Shown: piece after piece, positions 12,841-38,130 of the stretch
How the letters are laid out: the number at the start of each line of letters is the position of its first letter
How positions within the stretch are numbered: the stretch's first letter is position 1
DNA from: a virus
DNA length: 64,000 bases
Virus record (IMG/VR): IMGVR_UViG_3300011113_000664
Location: 1 to 64,000 of that record
Direction: 5' to 3' (one strand)
Position numbers and translations under genes: made by a program
The notes under the pieces: generated by a model
Database searches by the model: none
Told to the model about the DNA's origin: nothing
What the model saw: only the letters and a program-made list of their open reading frames with translations

Positions 12841-12940
12841 AATATACTTTTAGATAAATAGTTTGTTCTAAAATTTTTTGCTTATATTTGTAAGATTCTT
12901 TAACTGATTTGATATACTAAGGTATTAAAATTAAAATTTT

Positions 12941-13621
12941 ATGAAAAAAATTCTAATTGCGTGTGAAGAATCTCAAGCCATTACATTGGCTTTCAGAAAG
13001 TTAGGGTTTGAAGCCTATTCTTGCGACCTACTTCCTTGTAGTGGTGGTCATCCCCAATGGCATTACCAAGATGATGTATTCAATGTTATTGAAAAGGAAG
13101 ATTGGGATATGATGATTGCCCATCCTCCTTGCACATATCTTACAAGTAGTGGGGTACAATGGTTATCACATCCCGAAGATAAAGATTTACCTTTTGAGCA
13201 GCGCAGACCTCATCCAAAATACCCTAACAGAAGAAAAGATATGTTAGATAGTATTGAATTTGTTAAAACATTGTTTGATTGTAAAATATCAAAAGTTGCG
13301 ATAGAGAATCCTATTGGTATATTATCTACAAAGTGGAAAAAACCTGACCAAATCATACAACCTTATATGTTTGGGGATGAAGCTACAAAATCAACTTGCT
13401 TTTGGTTAAAGAATCTTCCACAACTTACACCAACAAACATTGTTTCTAAAGGTGAGTATGTTACATATTCAAGTGGTAAAAGAATGCCTAAGTGGTATGC
13501 TGATGCACTAACTAATGCAAAAACTGATGCAGAAAGAAGAACATTGAGAAGTAAAACCTTTCAAGGTATAGCTGATGCCATTGCTAAACAATGGGGTGAT
13601 ACACTACTTAATATAAAATGA
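12941..13621 (+). CDS. DNA cytosine methyltransferase-like protein
   Basis: ILIACEES (motif I-like), HPPC (motif IV), ENP (motif VI); short phage-type C5-MTase-like family. Confidence 0.7.
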   Translation: MKKILIACEESQAITLAFRKLGFEAYSCDLLPCSGGHPQWHYQDDVFNVIEKEDWDMMIAHPPCTYLTSSGVQWLSHPEDKDLPFEQRRPHPKYPNRRKDMLDSIEFVKTLFDCKISKVAIENPIGILSTKWKKPDQIIQPYMFGDEATKSTCFWLKNLPQLTPTNIVSKGEYVTYSSGKRMPKWYADALTNAKTDAERRTLRSKTFQGIADAIAKQWGDTLLNIK

Positions 13622-13775
13622 AAAAGTTATTTATTATAAGTATAATTTTTATTTTATTTTATGCGTGTTCTGCACCAAAAAGTTGCCCAACTTACTCAAA
13701 AATTCTTGAAAAAAAATGTAAGATTTGACTTACCGCTTGATATATTAGGGTATAACTTTATTAAATTTAATTTTT

Positions 13776-14168
13776 ATGAAAAGAGCATTTGATTTATTAG
13801 CATTGCTAAACGATGTTTGTGTTGAATCTTATCAAGATGAAAATTCAGCACAAGAAACAAAAAAAACTTTTGAGGATATGCACAAACTACTAATGATGGT
13901 AGAAAATATACTCATATCTTGGTCTAATACAAACTACTTTATGGTTAAAGCAGTTACACAAAATCAAGATAAAGAACCTATTATTGAAGCAAGGTCTGAT
14001 TTAGGTGAAGATGGGTTAATTATGCTATCTGATGAACTAACACAAGAGTTTGAAGATGAATATTGTGATGGTGGTTTAAAATCTGTTGATAGTTGGGATA
14101 GTAAAGAATACATAGAAAAAATTGTAAAATTTGTCTATGATAAAAACTTTACATTTAAAAGATTTTAA
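13776..14168 (+). CDS. Hypothetical early protein
   Basis: Follows promoter 13717; N-terminus paralogous to 15167..15322. Confidence 0.7.
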   Translation: MKRAFDLLALLNDVCVESYQDENSAQETKKTFEDMHKLLMMVENILISWSNTNYFMVKAVTQNQDKEPIIEARSDLGEDGLIMLSDELTQEFEDEYCDGGLKSVDSWDSKEYIEKIVKFVYDKNFTFKRF

Positions 14169-14249
14169 ATTAATTTGAAATCCCATTAAATTTTTTTGTA
14201 AGATTCTTAAACTCGTTTGATATATTAAGGTACAACAAAATAATTTATT

Positions 14250-14564
14250 ATGGAAACAATCACATTGGATAAATTCTTTTCAGAATACAAACCTCAAATC
14301 AATCATATTGTGAGGGCAAAAACAAATTCAGATATTGCTGATGAAGATATTGCACCTTGGTCGGGTTGTATGTATGAAACCTATGGTGAAGAATATGATT
14401 ATGTTCTTAAACAAATCTATGCAAATAGAAACAATCATATTTGGACTATTATGGAAAATGATGATGAACTTGTACTCGTTGCAGGTCATTCTTTTATTAA
14501 TCGTATGGGTTATGTCATTACCGAAAAAGGTTGGGAAAGTAAATTTGTAATTGTAGAAGATTAA
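14250..14564 (+). CDS. Hypothetical early protein
   Basis: Follows promoter 14197. Confidence 0.7.
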   Translation: METITLDKFFSEYKPQINHIVRAKTNSDIADEDIAPWSGCMYETYGEEYDYVLKQIYANRNNHIWTIMENDDELVLVAGHSFINRMGYVITEKGWESKFVIVED

Positions 14565-14576
14565 AATTAAAATAAA

Positions 14577-14795
14577 ATGGAAAAGATTTTCATGATTAAA
14601 GACAAGTCAGGAAGGGCAGAGCCTTTCACTACTACTGAAACTCATATCAGAAAGTATTGGGATTTAAATGATACTGATGATAATGAAATCGTATTAAATG
14701 ATTTCTTAAATGAATGTGATAGAGGTAGTTGTTGGGAAACAAGTTCAGAGAAAATAATGTATATTGATTTTAATATTAATTTAATTTATGGATAG
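14577..14795 (+). CDS. Hypothetical early protein
   Basis: TAAAATAAAATG start context. Confidence 0.65.
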   Translation: MEKIFMIKDKSGRAEPFTTTETHIRKYWDLNDTDDNEIVLNDFLNECDRGSCWETSSEKIMYIDFNINLIYG

Positions 14796-15036
14796 TACAG
14801 AAAAACATTGGAGTAATTATGCTAAGAATAATCTTATTGGTAAAACAATTAAATCAGTAAGATATATGACCCAATCCGAAGCAGATAATATGGGTTGGCA
14901 TTCAAGACCTATTGCTATATTCTTTACTGATGGTTCATTTATATTCCCATCTATGGATGATGAAGGTAATGATGGTGGAACATTATTTGGAAAAAATACA
15001 AATGGAGAAGATATAACTTTTCCAACTTTGTCTTAA
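14788..15036 (+). CDS. Hypothetical early protein
   Basis: Overlapping start; DDEGNDGG motif. Confidence 0.7.
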   Translation: MDSTEKHWSNYAKNNLIGKTIKSVRYMTQSEADNMGWHSRPIAIFFTDGSFIFPSMDDEGNDGGTLFGKNTNGEDITFPTLS

Positions 15037-15073
15037 AGATTTCCTTGATAGTCATATCTTATTTTTTGAAAAG

Positions 15074-15102
15074 TCCTCCCAAAATTTGGGGGGATTTTTT
15101 TT
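15074..15102 (+). terminator. Intrinsic terminator (long-stem class)
   Basis: TCCTCCCAAAATTTGGGGGGA plus T run; near-identical copy at 27338. Confidence 0.75.
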
Positions 15103-15166
15103 ATCTTTTTTGTAAGATTCCTTAAATCGTTTGATATATTAATGTGTAACAAAACTTAAAAACAAA

Positions 15167-15322
15167 ATGGAAAAAATATTTGATTTGCTTAATATCCTCA
15201 AAATGAGTTGTGAGGAAGGTTTGGATGGTTCTTGGGATTGTTCAACCGAAGAAGGTAGAAAAGCCTTTGGAGATATGATTGATATAATTGAAATGATTGA
15301 AGAAAAACTAAAACAAAAATAA
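15167..15322 (+). CDS. Hypothetical early protein (51 aa)
   Basis: Hand-translated MEKIFDLLNILKMSCEEG...; follows promoter 15111. Confidence 0.65.
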   Translation: MEKIFDLLNILKMSCEEGLDGSWDCSTEEGRKAFGDMIDIIEMIEEKLKQK

Positions 15323-15323
15323 A

Positions 15324-15521
15324 ATGGATTTAAAATATCTTAGAACTTTCATCAAAGAAAAGATTCAGGAATTTCCTGACCTTAAAAGTCGAATGGTTGG
15401 ATTATATGAACTCTGTTTGCAAGAAATTGAAGATGGTGATTCAGAAAGTCATCAAGTAAATTTCTGCATCTTTGATATTAATGAATTGATTGAAGAATAC
15501 CTTGAAGAAAACAAAAAATAA
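15324..15521 (+). CDS. Hypothetical early protein
   Basis: Coupled to the previous ORF. Confidence 0.65.
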   Translation: MDLKYLRTFIKEKIQEFPDLKSRMVGLYELCLQEIEDGDSESHQVNFCIFDINELIEEYLEENKK

Positions 15522-15522
15522 A

Positions 15523-15819
15523 ATGAAAACAAAATCAGATAACGAAGTAGTAAAAAGTTACGAAAACGAATTTTACTTTAATGATGAACCTTATTATATT
15601 CATTATGACATCACTTGGCATTGCTATATGGATGGCATTGGTTCTTATGAATATTGGGGTCGGAATTGTTATGATGAAGGAAAGTTTTGTACTGACCTTT
15701 TAGATATTAACATTACCAAAGTATATGAATTTGAAGGTAATGAAATTGAAATCTCTGATGAAATGAGAAAGCATTTTGAAGAACGAATTGAAAAGTATGC
15801 CGAATATGGTGATGATTAA
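15523..15819 (+). CDS. Hypothetical early protein
   Basis: Start reassigned to ATG 15523 (TAAAATG). Confidence 0.65.
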   Translation: MKTKSDNEVVKSYENEFYFNDEPYYIHYDITWHCYMDGIGSYEYWGRNCYDEGKFCTDLLDINITKVYEFEGNEIEISDEMRKHFEERIEKYAEYGDD

Positions 15820-15830
15820 ATAAAATAAAA

Positions 15831-16034
15831 ATGAGAAACAAATTTGATGTAATTAGCCCCGATGGATTTTCCATTCATTTCTCTGATGTTTATTCATCAA
15901 AGAAAGAAGCAATAAAGGCTTTTCAAGAATGGAAGAAAAGATATGAAAGGCAAGGGTATTATTCTTCAACAAATTATGGAAGAATACCTTTGGATGAATT
16001 AGAAAATTATTGTAGTATCATTAAATTAAAATAA
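15831..16034 (+). CDS. Hypothetical early protein
   Basis: A-rich start context. Confidence 0.65.
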   Translation: MRNKFDVISPDGFSIHFSDVYSSKKEAIKAFQEWKKRYERQGYYSSTNYGRIPLDELENYCSIIKLK

Positions 16035-16036
16035 AA

Positions 16037-16279
16037 ATGACAAATAAATTAATTGAAATGTTTGATATTGATGAAGTATTAAAACAAATCAAAAATTGCC
16101 CTAAAGATGAAGTTGTTATTCTTCTTCCGCATTATTCAATTAACAAATATAACTACTCACAAGAAAACCCCGAAGATGAAGATTGGGATTTCTTTGAATT
16201 TGAAGAAAAACTTAATTGTCCATTGTCTGTAACAGATTATGATGATTTGGTTGCCGACCCACACGGAATTTTAAATTAA
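16037..16279 (+). CDS. Hypothetical early protein
   Basis: Followed by a terminator. Confidence 0.65.
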   Translation: MTNKLIEMFDIDEVLKQIKNCPKDEVVILLPHYSINKYNYSQENPEDEDWDFFEFEEKLNCPLSVTDYDDLVADPHGILN

Positions 16280-16283
16280 ATTA

Positions 16284-16310
16284 TGGGGAAAGAAATTTCC
16301 CCATTTTTTT
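16284..16310 (+). terminator. Intrinsic terminator (GAAA-loop class)
   Basis: TGGGGAAA-GAAA-TTTCCCCA plus T run; identical copy at 18834. Confidence 0.8.
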
Positions 16311-16371
16311 TGTAAGATTCCTTTGCTGATTTGATATATTAAGATGTAACAAATTTCAAAACAAAATAATT

Positions 16372-16899
16372 ATGTTTAAATTAAATGCAATAGATGGTCA
16401 GTTAGACCTTTCAACCTTTGACTTGAAAGCCTTAACAAACAAGGCAAATCAAACTGCCAAAGAAATTCAAGAACATAATAATCAAGTTGCACAAAAGTTT
16501 GTGGAATTGATTAAGGATTACATTTACAAAATCAATGATGTAATGATTGATGAACTTGAATTACTATCATTCAAGTCGGTTAATAAACACATTGGAGATT
16601 GGTATCTTAGCAGAGAATCAAATGGTTTGTCAATGACCTTTGAATTTGGACACGGAAGAGCATCCATTACAATTAATTTCTTTTGCCCAAGAGAAGGAGA
16701 AAAACTTACCTATGATTTTAGTGGTAAAATAATTGTTTGGAAGAATTGGAAAGATAACTATGCCAAAGAAGTATATCCTTTGGAATCAGTTGCACAAGTC
16801 TTTGAAGTTGGTGCTGATGTAATTAAAGTACATATCATTGATAGGGATGTTAAAGACTATACAAGGAAAATGGAATTAGAAAAAATGTTGGATTATTAA
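16372..16899 (+). CDS. Hypothetical early protein
   Basis: Follows promoter 16311. Confidence 0.7.
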   Translation: MFKLNAIDGQLDLSTFDLKALTNKANQTAKEIQEHNNQVAQKFVELIKDYIYKINDVMIDELELLSFKSVNKHIGDWYLSRESNGLSMTFEFGHGRASITINFFCPREGEKLTYDFSGKIIVWKNWKDNYAKEVYPLESVAQVFEVGADVIKVHIIDRDVKDYTRKMELEKMLDY

Positions 16900-16911
16900 T
16901 TTAAATAAAAA

Positions 16912-17142
16912 ATGATTTACAATTTAGATAATCAAGAAGAAAGAAACCTCTATGCTATGAGCAATGAAGAAAAATTAAATCTTTTTCCAAAACTTGTAAC
17001 TATCTTAAAAGATATACAAGATGATGTAAAAGATTACCAAACCGAAAATGGTATCGGAATGATGGATGATATTCAATGGCAACAACTATTAGTTGAAAGA
17101 ATTATTGCATCAGTAGAATCGTTTAACTATAATTTAAATTAA
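16912..17142 (+). CDS. Hypothetical early protein
   Basis: Operon position, A-rich start. Confidence 0.65.
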   Translation: MIYNLDNQEERNLYAMSNEEKLNLFPKLVTILKDIQDDVKDYQTENGIGMMDDIQWQQLLVERIIASVESFNYNLN

Positions 17143-17148
17143 AATAAA

Positions 17149-17412
17149 ATGGAAAAAGATTTTATTGAAAAGATAGAACAACAAAATAAGAAACATATTT
17201 CTTATGTTGTAAGGTGTGATGATAAAAATGCTCCTAAAGAAGTAAAACCCGACACCTTTTTTCGTTTGTGGGAGTTTGAAAACTTATCTAAATTCATAAA
17301 GTTGTGTGAAGAACATAATTTAAAATATGATTTAGTTATTCAAGAATTTAATACTGAAAATGATTCAGTTGAATGTGAAATTGATATTGTTAGTAATAAT
17401 TATTTAAATTAA
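17149..17412 (+). CDS. Hypothetical early protein
   Basis: TAAAATAAAATG junction. Confidence 0.65.
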   Translation: MEKDFIEKIEQQNKKHISYVVRCDDKNAPKEVKPDTFFRLWEFENLSKFIKLCEEHNLKYDLVIQEFNTENDSVECEIDIVSNNYLN

Positions 17413-17418
17413 AATAAA

Positions 17419-17655
17419 ATGGAAAAGTTTACTTGTGAATTTATATTAGCATCTGACCTATTTCGTGGTCTTAATGATTTGTTTGGTGAATTATCAGATT
17501 CGGGTAGAGTTACTTGGGGTGATTCACATAGAACATTGATAACTGCTCAAAGAGTTTTAGATGATTTGTATGATACTGAAAATACAGAAGAATTAGAAAT
17601 TCTTAAAAATAGAATTGGAAATGATTTAAATATATTTGTTGATTTAGAAAATTAA
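17419..17655 (+). CDS. Hypothetical early protein
   Basis: TAAAATAAAATG junction. Confidence 0.65.
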   Translation: MEKFTCEFILASDLFRGLNDLFGELSDSGRVTWGDSHRTLITAQRVLDDLYDTENTEELEILKNRIGNDLNIFVDLEN

Positions 17656-17661
17656 TTAAAA

Positions 17662-17952
17662 ATGGAAAACAGATTTGTATTTAATGCTGATGCTGAAAAA
17701 GCAAAAGTTCAAAGTATCTTTGATGATGTTATGAATGAGATTGAACATAGTCTTAAACAAGGTAATAGAAAAACATTCATCAGAGTTCCATCTGAATATG
17801 GAAGTGAAATAAGACAAATGATTGAAAATGTATTGTTTGTTGGTAATCATCTGTTTGGTTGGAAGTCTTATGGTTCAAGTGGTAGTGGAAGTAAAATCTC
17901 TGAAACTTGGAATGGTATAAGAGAATACACATTAGTCTATTATGGTGATTAA
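17662..17952 (+). CDS. Hypothetical early protein
   Basis: Last gene before the terminator at about 17994. Confidence 0.65.
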   Translation: MENRFVFNADAEKAKVQSIFDDVMNEIEHSLKQGNRKTFIRVPSEYGSEIRQMIENVLFVGNHLFGWKSYGSSGSGSKISETWNGIREYTLVYYGD

Positions 17953-18088
17953 ATTTTAGTACAGGGTTTAATTTCATGTAAATTAGGTTGGAAAATCCCT
18001 CTGAAATTTGGAGGGATTTTTTTTATCTTTTTTGTAAGATTTCCTTACTGATTTGATATATTAAGGTGTAACAAAACTTAAAAACAAA

Positions 18089-18361
18089 ATGATTGATATT
18101 TTCAAAAAACTTGGTGATTATTTTAATCCCAAACAAGAAGAAGTAAAACAAGAAGAAGAAATCAAAGTAATTGGTTTCTATACTCGCAATGGTGATTTGT
18201 TTCTTTACAATTCATTTGATGACCGCTTTGATAATTTTATCAAAGTAGATTTATCCGATTCCGCTTTCAAATACAAAAACAATACCATTGAAGAAGCAGA
18301 AGTATGTATGCAAATTGAAGGTAATGTAGGGGATTTAATGGAACTTACTTTATTTGTATAA
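18089..18361 (+). CDS. Hypothetical early protein
   Basis: Follows promoter 18033; paralog of 39765..39977. Confidence 0.7.
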   Translation: MIDIFKKLGDYFNPKQEEVKQEEEIKVIGFYTRNGDLFLYNSFDDRFDNFIKVDLSDSAFKYKNNTIEEAEVCMQIEGNVGDLMELTLFV

Positions 18362-18399
18362 AAAAAAAATAGTTAAAGAGTTTATAAATTAATTTTATT

Positions 18400-18828
18400 A
18401 TGGGAACAAGAAGTTTAACAAAGTTCATCAGTCAGCACGATGATGAGAAATTCACAATTACTTGTGTTTATCGTCAATATGATGGTTATCCATCAGCACA
18501 TGGTAGAGAACTTGCAGAGTTCTTAATGTCAGGAAAAATGGTTCATGGCTTTGTTCAAAGCGAAGAAAGACAATTCAATGGAATTGGATGTCTTGCTGCT
18601 CAATTCATTGCCGATTTCAAAAAGGGTGTAGGTAATATCTATATCCATGAACCAAATTCAAAAGATTGTGGGGAGGAATATGTATATGAAGTAATTTACA
18701 AATACCCCAAAAGTTTTGGTAAAGTAGATGAAGATTCCCTTACAATGTCTTGCTATGATGTTTACAAAAAGGAAACAATTTTTGAGGGTAATCCAAAGGA
18801 TTTTCACAAAATATTTGAAACTGCATAA
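18400..18828 (+). CDS. Conserved phage protein (MGTRS..YDGYP family)
   Basis: MGTRSLT, YRQYDGYPSAHG, EYVY motifs seen in many phage small proteins. Confidence 0.75.
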   Translation: MGTRSLTKFISQHDDEKFTITCVYRQYDGYPSAHGRELAEFLMSGKMVHGFVQSEERQFNGIGCLAAQFIADFKKGVGNIYIHEPNSKDCGEEYVYEVIYKYPKSFGKVDEDSLTMSCYDVYKKETIFEGNPKDFHKIFETA

Positions 18829-18921
18829 AATTATGGGGAAAGAAATTTCCCCATTTTTTTTGTAAGATTCCCTTACTGATTTGATATATTAAGGTGTAAC
18901 AAATTTTAAAACAAAATAATT

Positions 18922-19254
18922 ATGAACTTTACAGACAAAATTATCGAACTTGAAGCAGAAGCAAAGAAATTTATTCTTTCCAAAGTAAAGGATGGAGAAA
19001 GACTTGAACTTATCTCAAAAGAAGAATTGGATAATATCGAAGATGATGAAATACTTTGGGATTTACCCAATGTTGAATTAAGTAATAAGTATAATGAATT
19101 AATTACTTATGCAATCATTTCCCTTGACAGGAAAGGAGAAAGTCTTGACCTATATGGTTATGCTCTTGGTGAATATCTTGGAGATAAATATATCTTTACT
19201 CCTTATGAACTTACCGCTAATCAAATTTGTAACCTTGCTGATTATCTAAAATAA
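18922..19254 (+). CDS. Hypothetical early protein
   Basis: Follows promoter 18861; paralog of 39988..40329. Confidence 0.7.
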   Translation: MNFTDKIIELEAEAKKFILSKVKDGERLELISKEELDNIEDDEILWDLPNVELSNKYNELITYAIISLDRKGESLDLYGYALGEYLGDKYIFTPYELTANQICNLADYLK

Positions 19255-19255
19255 A

Positions 19256-19459: not shown

Positions 19460-19463
19460 TACA

Positions 19464-19679: not shown

Positions 19680-19683
19680 TCCT

Positions 19684-19899: not shown

Positions 19900-19911
19900 A
19901 ATAAAAACAAA

Positions 19912-31495: not shown

Positions 31496-31581
31496 AATTA
31501 AGGGAGTAGAAATACTCCCTTTTTTTGTAAGATTTCAATTCTAATTTGATATATTATAGTGTAACAAAACAACAAAATAAA

Positions 31582-31821
31582 ATGATTAAAGAAATGTTAT
31601 TATCTCTGCCGAAAGATTTGCAAAAGGAAATTCTTGCAGATGCTTGTAGAAAAAGTTTTGGGTTATTCTTTGAATTTGCAAAAATCTTATTGGATGCTCC
31701 TATTTCAGAAGGTGGTATGTCTACCGAAGAAGTTGAAGAAATCCACAAGACAACCTTTCAAGAAAAATTGAATCCATCAAATAGAATCGTTTGTTCAAAT
31801 AGTTTTAGTACAACAAAATAA
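31582..31821 (+). CDS. Hypothetical early protein
   Basis: Start reassigned to ATG 31582; promoter 31526. Confidence 0.65.
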   Translation: MIKEMLLSLPKDLQKEILADACRKSFGLFFEFAKILLDAPISEGGMSTEEVEEIHKTTFQEKLNPSNRIVCSNSFSTTK

Positions 31822-31822
31822 T

Positions 31823-31948
31823 ATGGAAGATTTCTTTAAGCAACAAAAAAGGCTAAATATGCTCTTTGATGTTATCGTGGTATTAGGCTTTGCCTTTACA
31901 CTATTCGTAATCATTTGTCGGTTACTAATTTTAGCAATTGGGTTATGA
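31823..31948 (+). CDS. Small membrane protein (41 aa)
   Basis: Hand-translated MEDFFKQQKRLNMLFDVIVVLGF...; ATGA overlap with the next gene. Confidence 0.5.
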   Translation: MEDFFKQQKRLNMLFDVIVVLGFAFTLFVIICRLLILAIGL

Positions 31949-32163
31949 AAAATATAGATTGGGTTAATGCAGGATTATTTCTCCTTGTTGCAATATGTTT
32001 TAGTTATATTCTTTACAGCATCATTGAATATCATCGTTCAAAAGATGAACCTCATGAAGGTTATCAAAGGACAATTGAGTATGTTGGCTTTGATGGTAAA
32101 AAACATCAGGCTATTGTACTAAAAACAGGAACAAATAATTGGGTATTGGTAGAAAAGAAATAA
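31945..32163 (+). CDS. Small membrane-anchored protein
   Basis: Start reassigned to ATG 31945; N-terminal hydrophobic helix. Confidence 0.6.
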   Translation: MKNIDWVNAGLFLLVAICFSYILYSIIEYHRSKDEPHEGYQRTIEYVGFDGKKHQAIVLKTGTNNWVLVEKK

Positions 32164-32205
32164 AATAATTTGTAAGATTTGACATTGTATTTGATATATT
32201 AAGGT

Positions 32206-32421
32206 ATGAAGACAAGAACACTAATAGCAATAGCAATCATCGGGATGATGACCTCTTGCACAGAAAACACAACCAAAATGGTTATTGCTCATCGTGTGGA
32301 TGGCAATGATACCACTACCTTGCACAAGGTTAAGGTGGATAGGGAGTTTAAAGCAGGTGAGATTGTTTACCCTATCAATCTTATGAATAAATTCAAGATT
32401 GTTAGAGAATGCAGAAGATAA
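32206..32421 (+). CDS. Small putative lipoprotein (leaderless)
   Basis: MKTRTLIAIAIIGMMTSC; ATG at +1 of promoter 32171. Confidence 0.65.
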   Translation: MKTRTLIAIAIIGMMTSCTENTTKMVIAHRVDGNDTTTLHKVKVDREFKAGEIVYPINLMNKFKIVRECRR

Positions 32422-32756
32422 TGTTTGTTGCGGTTCTATGTTTGTTTGCCTCATCTGTTATGGGGCAAACTAACTACAAGACTATAATGCGTTTGAAAAA
32501 AGATTCAATCCGTAAGGAAATAAATCTTCATTTGCAGAAAGCAAAGGTATTGGAAGGTACTTCTAAGGTTTTACAAGTCGCTGCTTTAGCTTCAGTAGTT
32601 GCCTCTTATCATATCTATAATAAAGAAGGTAATGGTAAACCAATGATTTTCATTCCTTTGACCATAGGTTTATCTGCTTTTGCAACTGATATTTTGGCTG
32701 AAAGGCAATACCAAAAGGCACAAGAAAAAAGAATTAAATTTATTTGTAAGTTTTAA
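32409..32756 (+). CDS. Secreted/membrane hypothetical protein
   Basis: Signal peptide plus two hydrophobic segments. Confidence 0.6.
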   Translation: MQKIMFVAVLCLFASSVMGQTNYKTIMRLKKDSIRKEINLHLQKAKVLEGTSKVLQVAALASVVASYHIYNKEGNGKPMIFIPLTIGLSAFATDILAERQYQKAQEKRIKFICKF

Positions 32757-32779
32757 TTACTAATTTGATATATTAAGGT

Positions 32780-32938
32780 ATGAGAACTTCAGCAACAACA
32801 ACACCCATTAACTATGGGAAAATAAAAAGAGATTTGTATCTGCGTGATACCAATGGTGATTCAAGGTTTACCACTAAGGTTGGTAAGGATGCCAAAAAGT
32901 ATAACAGAAACGCAGAGAAGCGAAAGGATTGGGATTGA
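32780..32938 (+). CDS. Small basic protein (52 aa, leaderless)
   Basis: Hand-translated MRTSATTTPINYGKIKRDLYLRD...KKYNRNAEKRKDWD; ATG at +1 of promoter 32745. Confidence 0.7.
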   Translation: MRTSATTTPINYGKIKRDLYLRDTNGDSRFTTKVGKDAKKYNRNAEKRKDWD

Positions 32939-33066
32939 GTGTTTATTTTGGTGTTTATTTTTCATGAGAAACCCTATCGGTCATATCGGTAGGGTTTTTT
33001 ATTTTAAAATAAATTGTAAGATTCGGTAAGCGGTTTGATATATTAAGGTATAACAAATAAACACTT

Positions 33067-33486
33067 ATGAAAAACTTAGTTCCAACAGAAGCACTTCTTT
33101 CTCTCCTTCAGGGCGATACTCAGTCAAATGGTGGAGAGTTTACCGCACTATCAAAAAGAAGCGGTAAAGACTTTACCTACAAGGTAAGTCGCAAGCAATT
33201 CAACGACAGATGGTACACCCACATCAAGGTGGAAACCAACTACCTTGATTGGCAATACCTTGGTTATTTTAAAGATGGCAAGGTTGTTCGCAAAGGTCAG
33301 GAAGTTGATTCACCTTCAGCAAAAGGCATTGCGTGGATTCTGCACAACATCCAACTTGGTAATCATCAGGCGGTTACAGACCAAGTTGAGGTGATGCACT
33401 TAGGCAAATGTCTAAGGTGCGGAAGACCTCTAACTGATTCAGATTCAATCAGTATTGGATTTGGGCCAATTTGCAGAGCAAAGTAA
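33067..33486 (+). CDS. DUF6011-like zinc-finger protein
   Basis: CLRCGRPLTDSDSISIGFGPIC; promoter 33015. Confidence 0.8.
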   Translation: MKNLVPTEALLSLLQGDTQSNGGEFTALSKRSGKDFTYKVSRKQFNDRWYTHIKVETNYLDWQYLGYFKDGKVVRKGQEVDSPSAKGIAWILHNIQLGNHQAVTDQVEVMHLGKCLRCGRPLTDSDSISIGFGPICRAK

Positions 33487-33628
33487 CAATCTTTAAAGGG
33501 GAAGCATAATGTTTCCCCTTTTTATTGATATTGTTGATAACATTGCGTACACATTGTAGATTGTTTTTTAAAATAAAATGTAAGATTGTCTTACTCGTTT
33601 GATATATTAAGGTATAATAAATAACACT

Positions 33629-33997
33629 ATGAAAAAGACATATGTAATAATTCCGACAGAGTGCAATTCAAACGATGCTTTGCTGCCTCTTTTTAAGAAA
33701 GAAAATCTTACCTATTCTCCTTGGCTGTATTTGCATGGGGAGTTGGAAAACGAATCTGTTCGCTTCGGTGGATGGGATAAGTTTAAATGGTTTGGTGATG
33801 AACCCACTAAGGGTGGAATCTTTGATTGCGTGGTTCTCATTGGGGATGACGATGCAAATATCAAAGTGGTTAAATCCATTGCTTATCTTTGGAAAAGCGA
33901 CTTTGGCAAACTCACAGGTCTTGTGGTTGCAGAGGATGACCAAAAGAGTGTTGATTATGCCCACAAGAATTGGGAAGAAAAGGCAACAATGATATGA
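33629..33997 (+). CDS. Hypothetical early protein
   Basis: Promoter 33579. Confidence 0.7.
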   Translation: MKKTYVIIPTECNSNDALLPLFKKENLTYSPWLYLHGELENESVRFGGWDKFKWFGDEPTKGGIFDCVVLIGDDDANIKVVKSIAYLWKSDFGKLTGLVVAEDDQKSVDYAHKNWEEKATMI

Positions 33998-34044
33998 CAA
34001 ATGGGGAAGATTTTCTTCCCCTTTTTTATTTAAAAATTATATAT

Positions 34045-34107
34045 AAAAAAGTATGGACAAGCTACCTGCGATTAACCTTCCCTTGTGTCGGGCTTCTGTA
34101 TTGCTAC
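34045..34107 (-). ncRNA. Putative small RNA, copy 2
   Basis: Reversed promoter 34142; same core; U run. Confidence 0.7.
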
Positions 34108-34218
34108 ATCTTAATATATCAAACCAATAAGCATTTCTTACATAAAAAATAAAATAATATTTCTGTAAGATTCAGTATGTCATTTGATATATTAAGGTAC
34201 AACAAACACGAACAGACT

Positions 34219-34377
34219 ATGAAACAATATCAAGTCGGGATGGTGGTGAGGTTCATCAATCAAGGTGATGACACACCTTACATAGGTAGAATCATCCAAA
34301 TTCGTAAAAACGAAGTTATCGTTTCATACGAAAGGGATGGTTTCAAACTATGGCAAGCCATCAGAGTCACACACTAA
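34219..34377 (+). CDS. Small KOW/SH3-like protein (52 aa)
   Basis: Start reassigned to ATG 34219; YQVGMVVRF..G.I; promoter 34164. Confidence 0.65.
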   Translation: MKQYQVGMVVRFINQGDDTPYIGRIIQIRKNEVIVSYERDGFKLWQAIRVTH

Positions 34378-34480
34378 GGGAGCAGAAATGCTCCCTTTTT
34401 TTTTAAAATAAATTGTAAGATTATCTTACTAATTTGATATATTATAGTGTAACAATTTTAAACTTTTAAACAATAACATT

Positions 34481-34849
34481 ATGACAAAAATTTTCAACGG
34501 CACACCGCACCCAATCAACATCGTAGAGGGTGCAACCTTCAACCCTCAAATCCGCAAATGGGTAGGAGGCCAAGTGGTAAGAGTAATTCCCTCAAACGGA
34601 ATGCTCAATGCCAAAATGAGCGTGGTAGACCTTCCTTCAACCGATGGAATCCCAACCTTTGGGAAATCATTTGAGGGTGTGGATGCCCTTCCCGATGGTT
34701 TTGACATCTTTATCGTATCTGCCCTCTTCTCATCTGCAATGCAGAAAATGGGTGCTGATATGTCAAAAATCTTCACCATCGGTGACCCTGTGATGTCAGA
34801 GGATGGTAACACCTTCGTTGGATGCAGAGGAATCTGCCCTGCTTTCTGA
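34481..34849 (+). CDS. Conserved phage protein (NxTPHxI family)
   Basis: NGTPHPINI, IVS, GC motifs; promoter 34414. Confidence 0.75.
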   Translation: MTKIFNGTPHPINIVEGATFNPQIRKWVGGQVVRVIPSNGMLNAKMSVVDLPSTDGIPTFGKSFEGVDALPDGFDIFIVSALFSSAMQKMGADMSKIFTIGDPVMSEDGNTFVGCRGICPAF

Positions 34850-34975
34850 TACAGAAAAGGATTTAGTTGTTAATATATGGAAACCCTATCGGTTATATCG
34901 GTAGGGTTTTTTTTATTTATTTCTGTAAGATTACCTTACTCATTTGATATATTAAGGTACAACAGATAAACACTT

Positions 34976-35335
34976 ATGAAAAAGCAATTCGTTATTACAC
35001 TTTCCGATGGAGGGCAAATGTGGGATTTCAAATCCAAATTAGTCATCTTGTCTGCTGATTTTATTGAACTCAGAAGCACTATGGCTGAGTGCGATTGGAG
35101 GCACAAGGCTATGGCTTGCAAGGCTGAATTCTTTACCACCAAAGCAGGTAGGGAAGCAATTCGCCTTGGTGTCGGTCATTCCCACAAGGTGCTGATTTCC
35201 ACCTTTAGTGGGTCAAAATCCTTTCGTAATTGGAATGAAAGGAAAGACCCTACTGCCCTTTTCGCTCACGCACTTGGTATATCCAATGGCGGTGGTTGTT
35301 GGGCAGAAATAACACTTAAAATCAATCAGCAATGA
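34976..35335 (+). CDS. Hypothetical early protein
   Basis: Promoter 34924. Confidence 0.7.
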   Translation: MKKQFVITLSDGGQMWDFKSKLVILSADFIELRSTMAECDWRHKAMACKAEFFTTKAGREAIRLGVGHSHKVLISTFSGSKSFRNWNERKDPTALFAHALGISNGGGCWAEITLKINQQ

Positions 35336-35412
35336 TTGGCTTTTTTTAAAATAAATTGTAAGATTACCTTACTCATTTGATATATTAAGGTACAACAAAA
35401 CCAATAAACAAA

Positions 35413-35769
35413 ATGGAAAATTTCAAAACAGCAATCTACGGAGGCGCAAGTACAATTGTAACAAAACTTAACGAAAAGGTAAGGTCAGGTGACAAAAGTT
35501 GGGAATTGGTAAATATTACCAAAGACCCTGAATACTATAACCAATCTTACGAAGTTCGCCACAATGGTGAATTTGTTATCCGAATTGATAGACTTTACGG
35601 ATTCGGTTTCGGGTCTAATGCTTGGTATCCATATCTAAATAAGGTGCAATTTAAGAAATTGGAAGAGTTGGGTGTTCCTGTTGAAGTGCAATTTAATTAT
35701 CGTGGGAAAAGTATGGAAGAGATAAGTGCTGAAATTAGGGCAATACACGAAATTCTTGAAAGAGAATAA
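35413..35769 (+). CDS. Hypothetical early protein
   Basis: Promoter 35357. Confidence 0.7.
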   Translation: MENFKTAIYGGASTIVTKLNEKVRSGDKSWELVNITKDPEYYNQSYEVRHNGEFVIRIDRLYGFGFGSNAWYPYLNKVQFKKLEELGVPVEVQFNYRGKSMEEISAEIRAIHEILERE

Positions 35770-35821
35770 ATTAATTGGGAAGAGAAATCTTCCCTTTTTT
35801 TATTTCAATATTTTTTATTTC

Positions 35822-35886
35822 AGTTTGGGTGAACTCCCTGCGATTAACCTTCCCTTGAGTCGGGCTTCTGCAACAATCTTTGCTAC
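35822..35886 (-). ncRNA. Putative small RNA, copy 3
   Basis: Reversed promoter 35921; same core; longer 5' hairpin. Confidence 0.7.
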
Positions 35887-35901
35887 ACCCTAATATATCA
35901 A

Positions 35902-36085
35902 ACACAATGTTAAATCTTACAATCTTTTTCAACATTGTCAATACATTCTAATAACATTGTGTATAAACCCACATTGTGTTTACATTGTATATACTTGTCA
36001 AAACACAAACAATGTAAAATAACACACAATACAGAAAGCCATACATTGTCAATACCATTACATTGTCTATCATTCACATTGTCAG
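35902..36085. repeat. Third cluster of ACATTGT motifs
   Basis: About nine copies between divergent promoters 35921 and 36105. Confidence 0.75.
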
Positions 36086-36139
36086 AAATTATTTTAAAAT
36101 AAAATGTAAGATTGTGTATGTAGTTTGATATATTAAGGT

Positions 36140-36373
36140 ATGACACACAGACCATTAAATGTCATTGCCTCCGAGGTTAGGAGGGATTGGCAAAAGGTGA
36201 ACTATGCAGCCAAGCCTTATTTGGATGCAATGAGTTCACTAAACAGCATCAACGATTCCTATGGATGGGATTCGGCAAAGTCAATAGTTTTGTATTTCCT
36301 TGGCAATGCCTCTACTTGGAAGGGAGAGAAGGCAAAGGAGATAAAGGCTGAACTGAAAGCCATGTGCAAGTAA
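36140..36373 (+). CDS. Conserved small phage protein (leaderless)
   Basis: AAKPYLDAM..Y..DSA..IVLYFL.NA..WKGE motif; ATG at +1 of promoter 36105. Confidence 0.8.
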   Translation: MTHRPLNVIASEVRRDWQKVNYAAKPYLDAMSSLNSINDSYGWDSAKSIVLYFLGNASTWKGEKAKEIKAELKAMCK

Positions 36374-36424
36374 GTTTGAAAAAGGCAGTCGGGAGTGGCT
36401 GCTTTTTTTTATTTTTAATTTTTT

Positions 36425-36478
36425 AAAAAAGTATGGACAAGCTACCTGCGATTAACCTTCCCTTGTGTCGGGCTTCTT
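36425..36478 (-). ncRNA. Putative small RNA, copy 4 (no adjacent promoter)
   Basis: Identical to copy 2 over about 50 nt but lacks the 5' hairpin and promoter. Confidence 0.5.
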
Positions 36479-36499
36479 CTTTTTTATTAAAAAAAGAAT

Positions 36500-36610
36500 A
36501 AAAAAAAATCCCTCTGAATTTCAAAGGGATTTTCTAATAAAAATTTATGAATGAAAAACGAAAAACGACCAAGAAACCATACCTGCAAAGCAACTATGCT
36601 TTCCCTCTCT
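36500..36610 (-). ncRNA. Putative small RNA, divergent variant
   Basis: Reversed promoter 36645 to terminator 36500-36535; no credible ORF; contains AGGGAA...GCAGGTA. Confidence 0.55.
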
Positions 36611-36969
36611 GCTATACTATATCAAATGACTTACCAAATCTTACAAAAAAATAAAATAAATTTTGATCCCTAAACCAAGGCCAGGTGAACCAGGGTTTTT
36701 GACTTTTCCAAATTTATTTTCAAATAACCTTACGCAAGATTTATTTTTTCTAATCCTTTGGTTTTTTGAATTATTTTCTGCATGGCAATTTTTGGGTTTT
36801 TCAGAATAGAGTTTTTGATATTTCCAAATTTATTTTCTACCAAGTTTTTTGGTAACCTTACCAAAATTATTAGAATGCGTTTTCAGCCTCATAACATTGC
36901 GTATAAGACACGATGTGCCTTTTTGGTACTCTGATATCAAAAAAAATAGTTATGCGAATACAAAGGAAG

Positions 36970-37237
36970 TCGCTGATTTTCAATGAGTTATGTCTGATCT
37001 CATAACATAGCTTATCTTATTGGAAATCAATCACTTACGGCTTAGATGTAAGATATGGGTAAGAAAAAATTAAAAATAAATTTTTTTGTTTGATTTGTTT
37101 TCTTTTATACACGCATACACATACGCACACACCACGCACCACATATACTGATTCCTGGGGCAAGTCGCTGGTTTTCAGTCAGTTACAAAATCTTACAAAA
37201 TTTTTGAAATTTTTTCTCGCTGATTATCAGTCAGTTA
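36970..37237 (+). promoter_or_regulatory. Cluster of IHF-like sites
   Basis: AATCAA-TCAC-TTA at 37025 matches WATCAANNNNTTR; TCGCTGRTTWTCARTSAGTTA at 36970, 37165, 37217. Confidence 0.55.
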
Positions 37238-37268
37238 TGATTTATTTTAAATTTATTTTTGTGTGAGA

Positions 37269-37301
37269 TTTGGTTGGTATTACTTCTTATGCCGATATTT
37301 G
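37269..37301 (+). promoter_or_regulatory. Bacteroidota housekeeping-type promoter for the sigma-like gene
   Basis: TTTG-N21-GATATTTG-N4-ATG; one mismatch to TAnnTTTG; same N4-ATG geometry as at 8767, 11889, 46773, 49647 and 54483. Confidence 0.6.
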
Positions 37302-37305
37302 CTGC

Positions 37306-38130
37306 ATGAAAAATCAAACCCCCTCCTCCGCAGTTACCGCAGGGATGCCTGTAACTGCCTCTGTTTCAACTACTTCAGTTGTTTCTGCACCTAAAAAGGT
37401 GCGGAAAGTTTCAGTCGCTAAATTCGTAAAGCGACTTGACCTTTGCCCGATGACACCAAAGGGCTTTGCCAAAAGGGCAAAGACAATGGGCAAAGTTATC
37501 TCCTTTATCATTACACGGCAGTTTCAGTATGCCGTTGATGGTAACAGAGTTACCGCCAAAGATGCCTCCGATTTCGTTCAGGATGGTATGTTGTCAATCC
37601 TGAATGGCAATCAGGTCGATATGTCTAATTTCACCTATGCAGGTGAGAAAATGACACAAGGGAAATTCTTTTCCCTTTGGCTGAAAGCCTCCTTTCAGCA
37701 GTGTCAGCGCAATGACCAATTCGGTAGAATTACACGGAAGTGTAAGGTTACCGGAAAGCGTGAGGTGGTTGGAAAAATTGCGGTTGGCAGCATTGCCACT
37801 ACCGACAATGAGGGTGCAATTTCTATCTCCAATGAGGTGGAAATCAAAGCACTCAAAAGGGGTGCTTCTGATAGCACTACCTATGCTCCGCTGAAAAAGG
37901 TGGAGCGCAAAATGATTGCGTTCTTCAATGAGGCCACCACCAAAGCCGACAAGCGGTTTTGGGCTAACGGCTTGAAAATGTTGCACATTGAGTGCAGCAA
38001 ACTTCCGGCAAAGGAAGCCTGTAAGCTACATGGCTTTGAGCCATCCGCTTACTATGTGATGAAAAAGCGGATGTTGGCTGATGACCGGATGCAGGTCTTC
38101 AGTAGGCTTCGGGAATTGGGGCAAATCTAA
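37306..38130 (+). CDS. Divergent ECF-type RNA polymerase sigma factor-like protein
   Basis: Start at ATG 37306. Region-2-like AKDASDFVQDGMLSIL and KFFSLWLKASFQQCQRND; region-4 HTH-like LPAKEACKLHGFEPSAYYVMKKRM. Recognised by eye only. Confidence 0.55.
   Translation: MKNQTPSSAVTAGMPVTASVSTTSVVSAPKKVRKVSVAKFVKRLDLCPMTPKGFAKRAKTMGKVISFIITRQFQYAVDGNRVTAKDASDFVQDGMLSILNGNQVDMSNFTYAGEKMTQGKFFSLWLKASFQQCQRNDQFGRITRKCKVTGKREVVGKIAVGSIATTDNEGAISISNEVEIKALKRGASDSTTYAPLKKVERKMIAFFNEATTKADKRFWANGLKMLHIECSKLPAKEACKLHGFEPSAYYVMKKRMLADDRMQVFSRLRELGQI

What the first reader, a model, noticed from the sequence alone, without database searches (positions are those of the whole stretch)
12889..38130. Divergent ECF-like sigma factor with a 37-promoter regulon: a three-tier transcription cascade readable from sequence
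Seen: 37 copies of TGTAAGA-N12-TTTGATATATT with invariant spacing, confined to 12.9-36.6 kb. Immediately to the right is an isolated GC-richer gene (37306-38130) that lacks this promoter and instead has a TTTG-N21-GATATTTG host-type promoter. Known: Bacteroidota primary sigma reads TTTG-N19-21-TAnnTTTG. The 19 nt gap between TTGTAA and TATATT is too long for a standard sigma70 promoter. The protein has segments resembling ECF region 2 (DAxDxVQ, FxxWL) and a region 4 HTH. Inference: host sigma transcribes the phage sigma, which fires about 60 small takeover genes and several small RNAs, and a CTATTTAT class follows late. This would also be an orthogonal expression system for Bacteroidota.
Basis: partly seen in the sequence, partly recalled or inferred. 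Interest (0 to 1): 0.85.

Follow-up and report, generated by a model that had tools for sequence, protein, structure and literature searches.

The report
Phage sigma-like gene and private promoters
An uncultured T4-type phage that probably infects Bacteroidota runs about 60 small genes and four small RNAs from 37 near-identical promoters unlike the host's, and the gene next to them folds like a very divergent sigma factor that most likely reads them, though the same phage has two ordinary sigma genes elsewhere.

Summary
There are 37 copies of TGTAAGA-N12-TTTGATATATT, always with N12, all at 12,889-36,645 and none elsewhere in the 170-kb contig. They behave as promoters: all 33 plus-strand copies are followed by an ORF starting 0 nt (7 leaderless) or 13-32 nt after one predicted start base.

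ORF 37306-38130 has no Pfam or PHROG match. Two AlphaFold models place ECF sigma factors at the top of two structure searches, with a sigma-2 and a sigma-4 domain in order, but Z is only 5-6.5. Its own promoter is host-type (TTTG-N21-GATATTTG-N4-ATG) and is conserved in relatives.

In four relative lineages the gene sits beside such an array. The motif changes with lineage, and an inverted -35 half-site upstream of the gene changes with it.

The first is a real rival reader. The link from this gene to these promoters is therefore inferred, at about 0.5.

The closest published cases are the sigmas of phages 7-11 and phiEco32, and the PeSL cassettes of T4-type phages. Unchecked notes of this scan describe similar phage sigma regulons on other DNA.

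The parts
12889..36645 (.). Array of 37 E-class promoters (33 +, 4 -). Extended consensus: ttTGTAAGATT-N10-rTTTGATATATTAAGGTA(+1). About 60 small ORFs lie in the array.
12889..12918 (+). First E promoter, 17-nt leader to a DNA methyltransferase-like gene (12941-13621)
29704..29733 (+). E promoter with ATG exactly at the predicted +1 (leaderless DUF932 gene, 29739-30620)
36105..36134 (+). Last plus-strand E promoter, leaderless ORF 36140-36373
31080..31109 (-). Minus-strand E promoter with no ORF behind it; drives a repeated small RNA (…CAGAAGCCCGAC.CAAGGGAAGG…)
34113..34142 (-). Minus-strand E promoter, same small-RNA family
35892..35921 (-). Minus-strand E promoter, same small-RNA family
36616..36645 (-). 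Minus-strand E promoter (1 mismatch). A different transcript of about 110 nt would end at the terminator 36535-36503.
36650..37268 (.). Conserved non-coding region upstream of the sigma-like gene. It is 78.5% identical to L017 against 67.7% for the ORF DNA, and 36870-36979 is 100% identical.
37190..37197 (-). Isolated inverted -35 half-site (TGTAAGAT on the minus strand), 109-116 nt before the ATG. No -10 box follows it. It co-varies with the array's -35 box in relatives.
37269..37301 (+). Host-type (Bacteroidota sigma-A-like) promoter of the sigma-like gene: TTTG-N21-GATATTTG, 4 nt before the ATG (leaderless)
37306..38130 (+). Sigma-like gene, 274 aa. Residues 1-35 are disordered. A sigma-2-like domain spans about 36-141, a beta-rich linker about 141-190, and a sigma-4-like HTH domain about 190-271.
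38149..38176 (+). Intrinsic terminator of the sigma-like gene (AAGGGAGCAGAGATGCTCCCTT + T-run)

Best explanation
The contig is a T4-type phage of a probable Bacteroidota (or FCB-group) host, and three promoter classes can be read in it. Host-type promoters (TTG-N19-21-TAnnTTTG) precede replication genes, the operon with the two ordinary phage sigma genes, and ORF 37306-38130. That ORF encodes a very divergent two-domain member of the sigma-70 superfamily, with sigma-2 and sigma-4 and no sigma-3, as in ECF sigmas. Once made from its leaderless host-type transcript, it binds host core RNA polymerase. It then directs the polymerase to the 37 E promoters, read as TGTAAG-N16-GATATA with the start 7 nt further on. 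This turns on about 60 small cassette genes and four small RNAs as a second tier. A CTATTTAT(A) class follows, probably read by the gp55-like sigma. Shown here: the motif, its geometry and its promoter behaviour; the host-type promoter of the gene; the sigma-like fold; synteny and motif co-variation in relatives. Inferred: binding to core polymerase, which sigma reads which class, and the timing.
For: Promoter behaviour:
- 37 sites against 0.86 expected, and only N12 spacing.
- Every plus-strand site is followed by an ORF at 0 nt (n=7) or 13-32 nt from one predicted +1, never at 1-12 nt. The 4 minus-strand sites have no ORF.
- Terminators are enriched: 29 against 7.2 expected.

Not host-type:
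- E lacks the TTTG of the -7 box.
- Good TTG-N19-21-TAnnTTTG sites sit just upstream of five genes (the 280-aa sigma and thymidylate synthase among them), and a sixth lies 47 nt before DNA polymerase.
- E. coli-type promoters are not enriched: 38 against 37.5.
- Only 2 of 112 ORFs have a Shine-Dalgarno core, as in Bacteroidota (PMC6847099, PMC9723704).

Sigma-like fold:
- The second model has pLDDT 71.
- By VIA-align, 15 of the top 20 chains are sigma factors. For sigma-2, Z is 5.4-6.5 with rmsd 2.4-3.9 Å over 64-86 residues. Sigma-4 gives Z 5.2. Full-length ECF sigmas span both domains.
- Foldseek's top hits are M. tuberculosis SigH (E 0.11, probability 0.66) and chain F of 9m7y, the phiEco32 gp79-dependent promoter open complex.
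- hhalign against both a SigA-like and an ECF alignment aligns only DASDFVQDGML to region 2.1/2.2.
- Complex prediction of the N-domain with F. johnsoniae beta' 180-420 gave weak support: score 0.42, best control 0.00. That mark was reached by 58 of 80 solved complexes and 2 of 110 mismatched pairs, but scores of 0.60 or under are more often wrong than right unless the guess was likely beforehand. The runs agree in at least 92% of contacts and the partner's pLDDT is at least 66.

Relatives:
- The gene lies beside such an array in five lineages, at 21-64% protein identity.
- The motif keeps its register while its sequence changes: A TGTAAGA…GATATATT, B AAAGTGTAAGA…GGATATAT, D TGTTAGA…CGATATATT, C TGTTATT…GTATATTTG.
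- B and D lack the TG, which argues against an extended -10 reading.
- The inverted half-site upstream of the gene changes with its lineage: ATCTTACA, ATCTAACA, ATCTTACACTTT.
- The gene's own promoter is host-type in A, B, D and E.

Precedent: the sigma of phage 7-11 reads GTAAtg-(16)-aCTA, with starts 6-9 bp downstream (PMC8948821).
Against: - There is no Pfam or PHROG sigma match for the ORF or its distant relatives.
- Profile-profile probabilities are only 2% and 17%.
- Z of 5-6.5 is in the range the tool calls common for helical domains.
- The contig has a full primary-like sigma (r1.2-r4.2, E 1e-29 to SigA structures), also behind a host-type promoter. It could read TG-n-TATATT in this lineage.
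- In lineages C and E the arrays carry host-like TATATTTG boxes. In C the sigma-like gene's own promoter has the array's upstream block. There the host sigma may read the array, and the protein may only assist.
- Adjacency and co-variation do not separate this gene from any other co-evolving factor.
- The contig may be incomplete (CheckV 52%), so a phage polymerase elsewhere is not excluded.
Confidence: 0.5

Rival explanations
1. The 280-aa primary-like phage sigma (contig 103736-104578, outside the window) reads the E promoters as extended -10 promoters (TG-n-TATATT). ORF 37306 would then be something else, for example a regulator or a sigma mimic.
For: It is a Pfam-positive sigma with r2 and r4. 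It aligns over regions 1.2-4.2 to SigA structures at 1e-29 and so has the sigma-3 domain that reads a TG. It has a perfect host-type promoter 14 nt before its ATG. In this lineage the E motif contains TG-A-TATATT.
Against: In lineages B and D the TG or the TAnnnT register is lost (TGGATATAT, CCGATATATT), while GATATAT and its distance to the start are kept. The 280-aa sigma family returned far more relatives than the ORF family: over 80 clusters at 50% identity or more, against about 25 proteins in all for the ORF. It also lies 66 kb from the array. With a 17-nt spacer the -35 would be GTAAGA. Its nearest cellular relatives are FCB-group primary sigmas, so it may simply read the host-type class.
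Confidence: 0.15
2. ORF 37306 is not a sigma. It is an activator that binds the upstream box (TGTAAGA) and recruits polymerase carrying the host sigma-A or the 280-aa sigma, which reads TATATT. This would work like T4 MotA at middle promoters.
For: The upstream box spans about -35 to -27, close to where the MotA box sits (own knowledge of T4). In lineage C the array keeps a host-type -7 box and adds a conserved upstream block. An isolated half-site with no -10 box lies upstream of the gene and co-varies with the array's box, as an operator would. The C-terminal domain is a confident HTH.
Against: The N-terminal domain matches sigma-2, the part that binds core and melts the -10, and full-length ECF sigmas align over both domains. 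In lineages A, B and D the -10 block (GATATAT) also differs from the host box.
Confidence: 0.15
3. The E promoters are read directly by a host factor, either sigma-A tolerating TAnnTT-AA with a 22-nt spacer or a host ECF sigma. Their uniformity then reflects cassette shuffling, as with the PeSL units of T4-type phages, and not a private sigma.
For: The layout of terminator, promoter and small ORF is that of PeSL cassettes (PMC2839356, PMC4122927), and the phage is T4-type. TATATT sits where TAnnTT of the host box would sit, and TTTG often precedes TAAGA. In lineages C and E the arrays have true TATATTTG boxes.
Against: E lacks the TG of the -7 box, and its TTG-to-TA spacing is 22 against 19-21 in the host-type sites of this genome. 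The motif occurs nowhere else in the contig, and the replication genes use the ordinary box.
Confidence: 0.15

Closest known systems
Sigma factors of Salmonella phage 7-11 (gp47) and coliphage phiEco32 (gp36) (PMC8948821, PMC12276001)
   Same: A phage-encoded, very divergent sigma is made from host-sigma promoters and redirects host core polymerase to a private promoter class. The 7-11 promoters are bipartite, GTAAtg-(16)-aCTA, with the start 6-9 bp downstream. That is the same geometry and GTAA core as GTAAGA-(16)-ATAT here. Chain F of the gp79-dependent phiEco32 promoter complex (9m7y) was Foldseek hit 2.
   Different: Those sigmas drive 6-8 middle or late promoters of structural genes in small podoviruses of enterobacteria. 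Here there are 37 promoters in front of small accessory cassettes and small RNAs in a T4-type phage of a probable Bacteroidota host. No sequence relationship was found.
PeSL (promoter-early stem-loop) cassettes of T4-type phages (PMC2839356, PMC4122927)
   Same: The phage is T4-type (gp23). Small variable genes are each bracketed by a terminator stem-loop and a near-identical promoter. Identical promoter copies repeat, for example at 25194/25481 and 26746/27365.
   Different: PeSL promoters are host sigma-70 early promoters. The E motif does not fit the host-type box used elsewhere in this genome.
T4 MotA/AsiA middle promoters and the SPO1 gp28 to gp33/34 sigma cascade (own knowledge; the SPO1 cascade is named in PMC13401047)
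   Same: An early phage product retargets host polymerase to a second promoter class, and a late class follows. Here a gp55-like sigma and a TATAAATA-like late box (CTATTTATA) are present.
   Different: No MotA-like chain was among the top 50 of either structure search. Unlike the SPO1 sigmas, this protein escapes the Pfam sigma models.
Bacteroidota sigma-A promoters, -33 TTTG / -7 TAnnTTTG (PMC9723704)
   Same: The sigma-like gene's own promoter and those of the replication genes fit this class. Leaders lack Shine-Dalgarno sequences.
   Different: The 37 E promoters do not fit it. 7 of 33 E transcripts (21%) would be leaderless, against 5.5% in F. psychrophilum.

Membership tests
Sigma-70 family, group 4 (ECF-like) | Match to the sequence profiles Sigma70_r2 (PF04542) and Sigma70_r4 / r4_2 (PF04545, PF08281) | tested here: not met
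   No Pfam hit at E up to 10 for the ORF, and none at E up to 1 for 7 distant relatives. The two other sigma genes of the contig do match.
Sigma-70 family, group 4 (ECF-like) | Sigma-2 helical domain followed by a sigma-4 HTH domain in one chain | tested here: met
   Two models were searched. 15 of the top 20 VIA-align chains are sigma factors, with Z 5.4-6.5. Full-length SigH and SigL span residues 48-272. Foldseek's top hits are SigH and a chain of a phiEco32 polymerase complex. The Z values are modest, so this is fold-level support only.
Sigma-70 family, group 4 (ECF-like) | Region 2.1/2.2 core-binding motif | tested here: inconclusive
   hhalign aligns only DASDFVQDGMLSIL to region 2.1/2.2 of both a SigA-like alignment (probability 2%) and an ECF alignment (E 0.0015, probability 17%). 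D89 is invariant in the family.
Sigma-70 family, group 4 (ECF-like) | Binds the RNA polymerase beta' clamp helices | tested here: inconclusive
   The complex prediction gave weak support: 0.42 against a best control of 0.00. The polymerase was a stand-in host (F. johnsoniae) and nothing was measured.
Sigma-70 family, group 4 (ECF-like) | Cognate bipartite promoter with a spacer of about 16 nt and the start 6-9 nt after the -10 box | tested here: met
   The geometry is TGTAAG-N16-GATATA-N7-A(+1). It is fixed in 37 sites and in lineages A, B and D. The start is supported by 7 ATGs lying exactly at +1. That this protein reads these sites is not shown.
Sigma-70 family, group 4 (ECF-like) | Holoenzyme initiates at the cognate promoter | not testable with these tools
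   This needs in vitro transcription or a reporter assay.
T4 MotA-type activator | MotA N-terminal domain and double-wing DNA-binding domain | tested here: inconclusive
   No MotA chain is among the 50 rows listed by either search. Absence from a list does not exclude the family.
PeSL cassettes of T4-type phages | T4-type phage with small variable genes bracketed by a terminator stem-loop plus a conserved promoter | tested here: met
   gp23 at E 9.5e-59. 29 terminators against 7.2 expected. 25 of 37 sites have a T-run within 45 nt upstream.
PeSL cassettes of T4-type phages | The promoter is a host primary-sigma early promoter | tested here: not met
   E lacks the TAnnTTTG box used by the host-type sites in this genome.
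Bacteroidota sigma-A promoter (for the gene's own promoter) | -33 TTTG, 19-21 nt, -7 TAnnTTTG | tested here: met
   The window has TTTG-N21-GATATTTG, with the first T replaced by G. Relatives: L017 TTTG-N21-TATATTTG, L101 TTTG-N19-TACCTTTG, L336 TTG-N21-TACATTTG.

The most novel reading that the evidence does not exclude
The ORF founds an unannotated family of phage sigma factors that has co-evolved with private promoters across at least four lineages. The promoters range from host-like boxes (TATATTTG) to fully distinct ones (TGTAAGA / GATATAT, TGTTAGA / CGATATAT). The sigma also feeds back on its own gene through an inverted -35 half-site. That would be a natural series of orthogonal sigma-promoter pairs for Bacteroidota. 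It would also be a case where the 'early' cassette region of a T4-type phage runs on a phage sigma, not the host sigma.
Probability: 0.35. Interest if true: 0.7.

Novelty: new variant of a known kind. Interest (0 to 1): 0.55.

Why it matters
Phage-encoded sigma cascades are textbook for Bacillus and enterobacterial phages. I found no published transcription programme for a T4-type phage of Bacteroidota, a phylum whose promoters and translation signals differ from the model bacteria.

If the assignment holds, this is a sigma family invisible to sequence profiles, with a very clean two-box promoter. It would also show that the shuffling 'early' cassettes of T4-type phages can run on a phage factor.

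The lineage series (A, B, D, C) gives ready-made variant pairs to test specificity. It could also supply expression parts for Flavobacteriia and Bacteroides, where tools are scarce.

The principle is known. Unchecked notes of this scan describe similar regulons in other jumbo phages. The key link is untested.

Tried and rejected
- Nothing useful came from tblastn of the ORF against 50,697 phage records, an hmmsearch of the family profile against PDB sequences, or Rfam on the window and on 30.5-38.7 kb, which gave only tRNAs and sub-threshold hits.
- Scanning IMG/VR and the metagenome collection for the exact motif gave almost only single chance hits. Only two short contigs of one sample held 3-5 copies.
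- Five IMG/VR relatives that carry the 280-aa sigma are 6-23% fragments. They hold neither the motif nor the ORF, so they are not informative.
- Whole metagenome records behind the relatives could not be searched. I therefore could not test whether the 280-aa sigma varies with the motif.
- Cluster names and a genome scan with the 280-aa sigma did not identify the host. The best cellular relatives are about 30-37% identical and are FCB-group and spirochaete primary sigmas.
- No RNA polymerase beta/beta' was found in the contig. The T7-type search matched nothing even in the controls, so it shows nothing. No bS21 was found.
- I looked for a match between the recognition helix of the sigma-4 domain and the -35 variants. 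I dropped it because the helix varies as much within lineage A as between lineages.
- The 100%-conserved block 36870-36979 shows no significant RNA fold on either strand: z -1.7 and +0.5.
- The minus-strand TGTAAG…TGTAAGAAA pair at 38328-38345 turned out to be part of a host-type promoter, not E half-sites. It stays the same in lineage C, where the array box differs.

Full report
**1. The observation**

The pattern TGTAAGA-N12-TTTGATATATT has 37 matches in the window, 32 exact and 5 with one mismatch. Dinucleotide-preserving shuffles gave 0.86 on average.

The window is the first 64 kb of a 170,056-bp virus contig with 27.7% GC. In the whole contig, all sites with at most one mismatch lie at 12,889-36,645. 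The only other hits are four 3-mismatch chance matches. No copy has any spacing other than N12.

**2. They behave as promoters with a fixed start**

Take the A six bases after the motif as +1. Every one of the 33 plus-strand sites is then followed by an ORF of at least 51 codons. The ATG lies at 0 nt in 7 cases, including the DUF932 gene at 29739. In the other 26 it lies at 13-32 nt (median over all 33, 19 nt). It never lies at 1-12 nt.

The four minus-strand sites have no ORF. Three of them precede copies of one conserved sequence (…CAGAAGCCCGAC.CAAGGGAAGG…), which are likely small RNAs.

Intrinsic terminators are enriched, 29 against 7.2 expected in 28-39 kb. 25 of the 37 sites have a T-run just upstream. 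The region is therefore a chain of terminator-promoter-gene cassettes.

Most products have no known family. The exceptions are DUF932, DUF6011 and a methyltransferase-like protein.

**3. The genome and host**

The contig encodes a gp23-type capsid protein (E 9.5e-59), a family-B DNA polymerase, thymidylate synthase, PhoH and homing endonucleases. It is a distant T4-type phage.

Only 2 of 112 ORFs of 150 codons or more have a Shine-Dalgarno core at -20 to -4, and G is depleted upstream of starts. Bacteroidota are known to lack Shine-Dalgarno sequences (PMC6847099, PMC9723704).

E. coli-type promoters are not enriched. Sites of the Bacteroidota sigma-A type, TTG-N19-21-TAnnTTTG, sit directly upstream of:
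- the 280-aa sigma gene
- thymidylate synthase
- the genes at 51392-52780 and 39988-40329
- the gene at 161500

A further site lies 47 nt before DNA polymerase, inside the preceding gene. Several of these sites have the box ending 4 nt before the ATG.

A third class, (a)CTATTTAT(a), is the most enriched 8-mer upstream of ORFs. It precedes about 45 ORFs, the gp23 capsid gene among them, and usually ends 10-17 nt before the ATG.

So three classes can be read: H (host-type), E (the 37) and L (late-like). No host could be named.

**4. The neighbouring gene**

ORF 37306-38130 (274 aa) lies in the GC-richest kilobase of the window. It has no Pfam hit and only noise in PHROGs.

It is a real conserved gene. 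There are 15 close homologues and about ten more distant ones, all metagenomic and unannotated.

Its promoter is TTTG-N21-GATATTTG-N4-ATG. The homologous position in relatives reads:
- TTTG-N21-TATATTTG-N4-ATG in L017
- TTTG-N19-TACCTTTG-N4-ATG in L101
- TTG-N21-TACATTTG-N8-ATG in L336

**5. Is it a sigma?**

By sequence profiles it is not. Pfam is negative for the ORF and for seven distant relatives. hhalign against a SigA-like alignment gives a probability of 2%. Against an alignment of 23 ECF sigmas from two FCB-group genomes it gives 17%.

In both comparisons, however, the single aligned piece is DASDFVQDGMLSIL against region 2.1/2.2.

By fold the answer is more positive. Two AlphaFold models were made, with pLDDT 62 and 71 and confident domains at about 36-141 and 190-271. 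With VIA-align against 48,161 representative chains:
- 15 of the top 20 hits for the second model are sigma factors, among them EcfG-type RpoE, SigC, SigH, CnrH, BldN, SigL, SigW and AlgU.
- For the sigma-2 domain, Z is 5.4-6.5 and rmsd is 2.4-3.9 Å over 64-86 residues.
- Full-length ECF sigmas align across both domains.
- A sigma-4 domain (3mzy) matches 187-271 with Z 5.2.

Foldseek ranks M. tuberculosis SigH first (E 0.11, probability 0.66). Second is chain F of 9m7y, the gp79-dependent promoter open complex of phage phiEco32.

The Z values are in the range the tool calls common for helical domains. The weight therefore lies in the concentration of one family at the top, in two aligners and two models.

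A complex prediction of residues 35-145 with F. johnsoniae beta' 180-420 gave weak support:
- The score was 0.42 and the best control 0.00.
- The mark was reached by 58 of 80 solved complexes and 2 of 110 mismatched pairs. A pass at 0.60 or under is more often wrong than right unless the guess was likely beforehand.
- The runs agree in at least 92% of contacts, and the partner's pLDDT is at least 66.

I read the protein as a two-domain sigma-like protein with a beta-rich insert as linker. This is fold-level support only.

**6.

Outside the window the contig has two Pfam-positive sigma genes.
- One, at 103736-104578, is 280 aa. It aligns over regions 1.2-4.2 to primary sigmas of known structure at 1e-29. 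It belongs to a large phage family found on contigs of up to 244 kb. Its nearest cellular relatives are 30-37% identical primary sigmas of FCB-group bacteria and spirochaetes.
- The other, at 102236-102757, is 173 aa with region 2 only. It is the likely counterpart of T4 gp55.

They lie in one gene string with a primase and PhoH, behind a perfect H-type promoter.

The phage therefore has three sigma-like proteins and two private promoter classes. The tidy assignment is:
- the 280-aa sigma reads H-type promoters
- the 173-aa sigma reads L
- ORF 37306 reads E

The 280-aa sigma remains a genuine rival reader of E, because in this lineage E contains TG-A-TATATT, a classical extended -10.

**7. Relatives**

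The ORF family sits beside an array of small cassette genes in five lineages. The arrays often include DUF932 and the same small-RNA sequence.

Aligned in one register:

| Lineage | Locus and sites | Identity to ORF | Array motif |
|---|---|---|---|
| A | window, 37 sites; L017, 22 sites | 64-100% | TGTAAGATT…TTTGATATATTAAGGTA |
| B | L101, 10 sites | 39% | AAAGTGTAAGAT…ATTGGATATAT |
| D | L336, 21 sites | 32% | TGTTAGATT…TcCGATATATTATA |
| C | L103, 12 sites | 26% | TGTTATTATTTGA…TGTATATTTG |
| E | L334 | 21% | ordinary TATATTTG boxes, no fixed upstream block |

Three points follow.
- The part kept in A, B and D is GATATAT at a fixed distance from both the upstream box and the start. The TG is not kept. 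This argues against an extended -10 reading. It fits a two-box geometry of TGTAAG-N16-GATATA-N7-+1, the same as the GTAAtg-(16)-aCTA promoters of the phage 7-11 sigma (PMC8948821).
- An isolated inverted copy of the upstream box lies about 95-121 nt before the sigma-like gene, at a homologous position in each lineage. It has no -10 partner and it changes with the lineage's array box: ATCTTACA at 37190-37197 in A, ATCTAACA in D, ATCTTACACTTT in B. Whatever reads the upstream box therefore probably also acts at this gene.
- In C and E the arrays carry host-like -7 boxes. In C the gene's own promoter has the array's upstream block. In those phages the host sigma may read the arrays. This weakens the private-sigma reading, or else shows an earlier stage of its evolution.

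**8. Verdict**

- The motif is a promoter class: about 0.95.
- It needs a phage-specified factor: about 0.75.
- The ORF is sigma-like: about 0.7.
- The ORF reads the E promoters: about 0.5.

The rivals are the 280-aa sigma, an activator role for the ORF, and direct reading by a host factor. I put each at about 0.15.

The timing is inferred. If the model holds, E is a second tier (delayed early), not the first.

The array layout matches the PeSL cassettes of T4-type phages (PMC2839356, PMC4122927), except that the promoter is not host-type. Earlier unchecked notes of this scan describe similar phage ECF-sigma regulons on other DNA, for example TGTAAC-N16-CGTATAAC in a 328-kb phage. I used these as leads only.

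Noticed in passing
window 31010-31080, 34040-34113, 35820-35892 (minus strand); also L101, L103, L336: Three minus-strand E promoters drive copies of one sequence with no ORF (…CAGAAGCCCGAC.CAAGGGAAGGTTAATCGC…). The same core follows array promoters in lineages B, C and D, so this is a small-RNA family conserved across the phage group. There is no Rfam match.
   Followed up: partly
window 36650-37268: The non-coding stretch upstream of the sigma-like gene is better conserved with L017 (78.5%) than the gene's DNA (67.7%). It contains a 110-nt block (36870-36979) that is 100% identical, a direct repeat TTTTTGA..TTTCCAAATTTATTTTC at about 36696 and 36813, and a CA-rich tract at 37100-37140. No significant RNA fold was found.
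   Followed up: partly
window 37218-37235: A palindrome, CTGATTATCAG, lies between the inverted half-site and the gene's promoter. It is kept in lineages A, B and D (CTGAGTATCAG, TGATTATCAG, CTGATTATCAA). It looks like an operator for a dimeric regulator.
   Followed up: no
window 38150-38356 (minus strand): A host-type promoter on the minus strand (TTG-N21-TACATTTG, ending at 38324) points at the 3' end of the sigma-like gene. With the shared terminator at about 38150 it would give a GC-rich transcript of about 170 nt with no ORF. The promoter sequence is conserved in L101 and L103. A C-rich tract follows at 38370-38450.
   Followed up: partly
contig 101477-104578 (outside the window): A gene string encodes a 280-aa primary-like sigma, a primase, a 173-aa gp55-like sigma and PhoH, behind one perfect host-type promoter. 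The 280-aa sigma family is widespread in large uncultured phages, on contigs of up to 244 kb.
   Followed up: partly
window 8767, 11889, 46474, 48970, 53845; contig 135250, 144746, 167214: Many genes have a TAnnTTTG box ending exactly 4-5 nt before the ATG. Leaderless transcripts therefore seem common from the host-type class too, more than the 5.5% reported for F. psychrophilum.
   Followed up: no
window 25194/25481, 26746/27365, 34924/35357, 28632/30663, 23637/31131, 24040/28300: Pairs of E promoters share identical 12-nt spacers. This suggests recent duplication or recombination between cassettes, as proposed for PeSL units.
   Followed up: no
L334 10700-12750: The lineage-E relative carries a run of small genes built from a repeated GYWE…NG…KG motif (MORN-like repeats) within its cassette array.
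   Followed up: no
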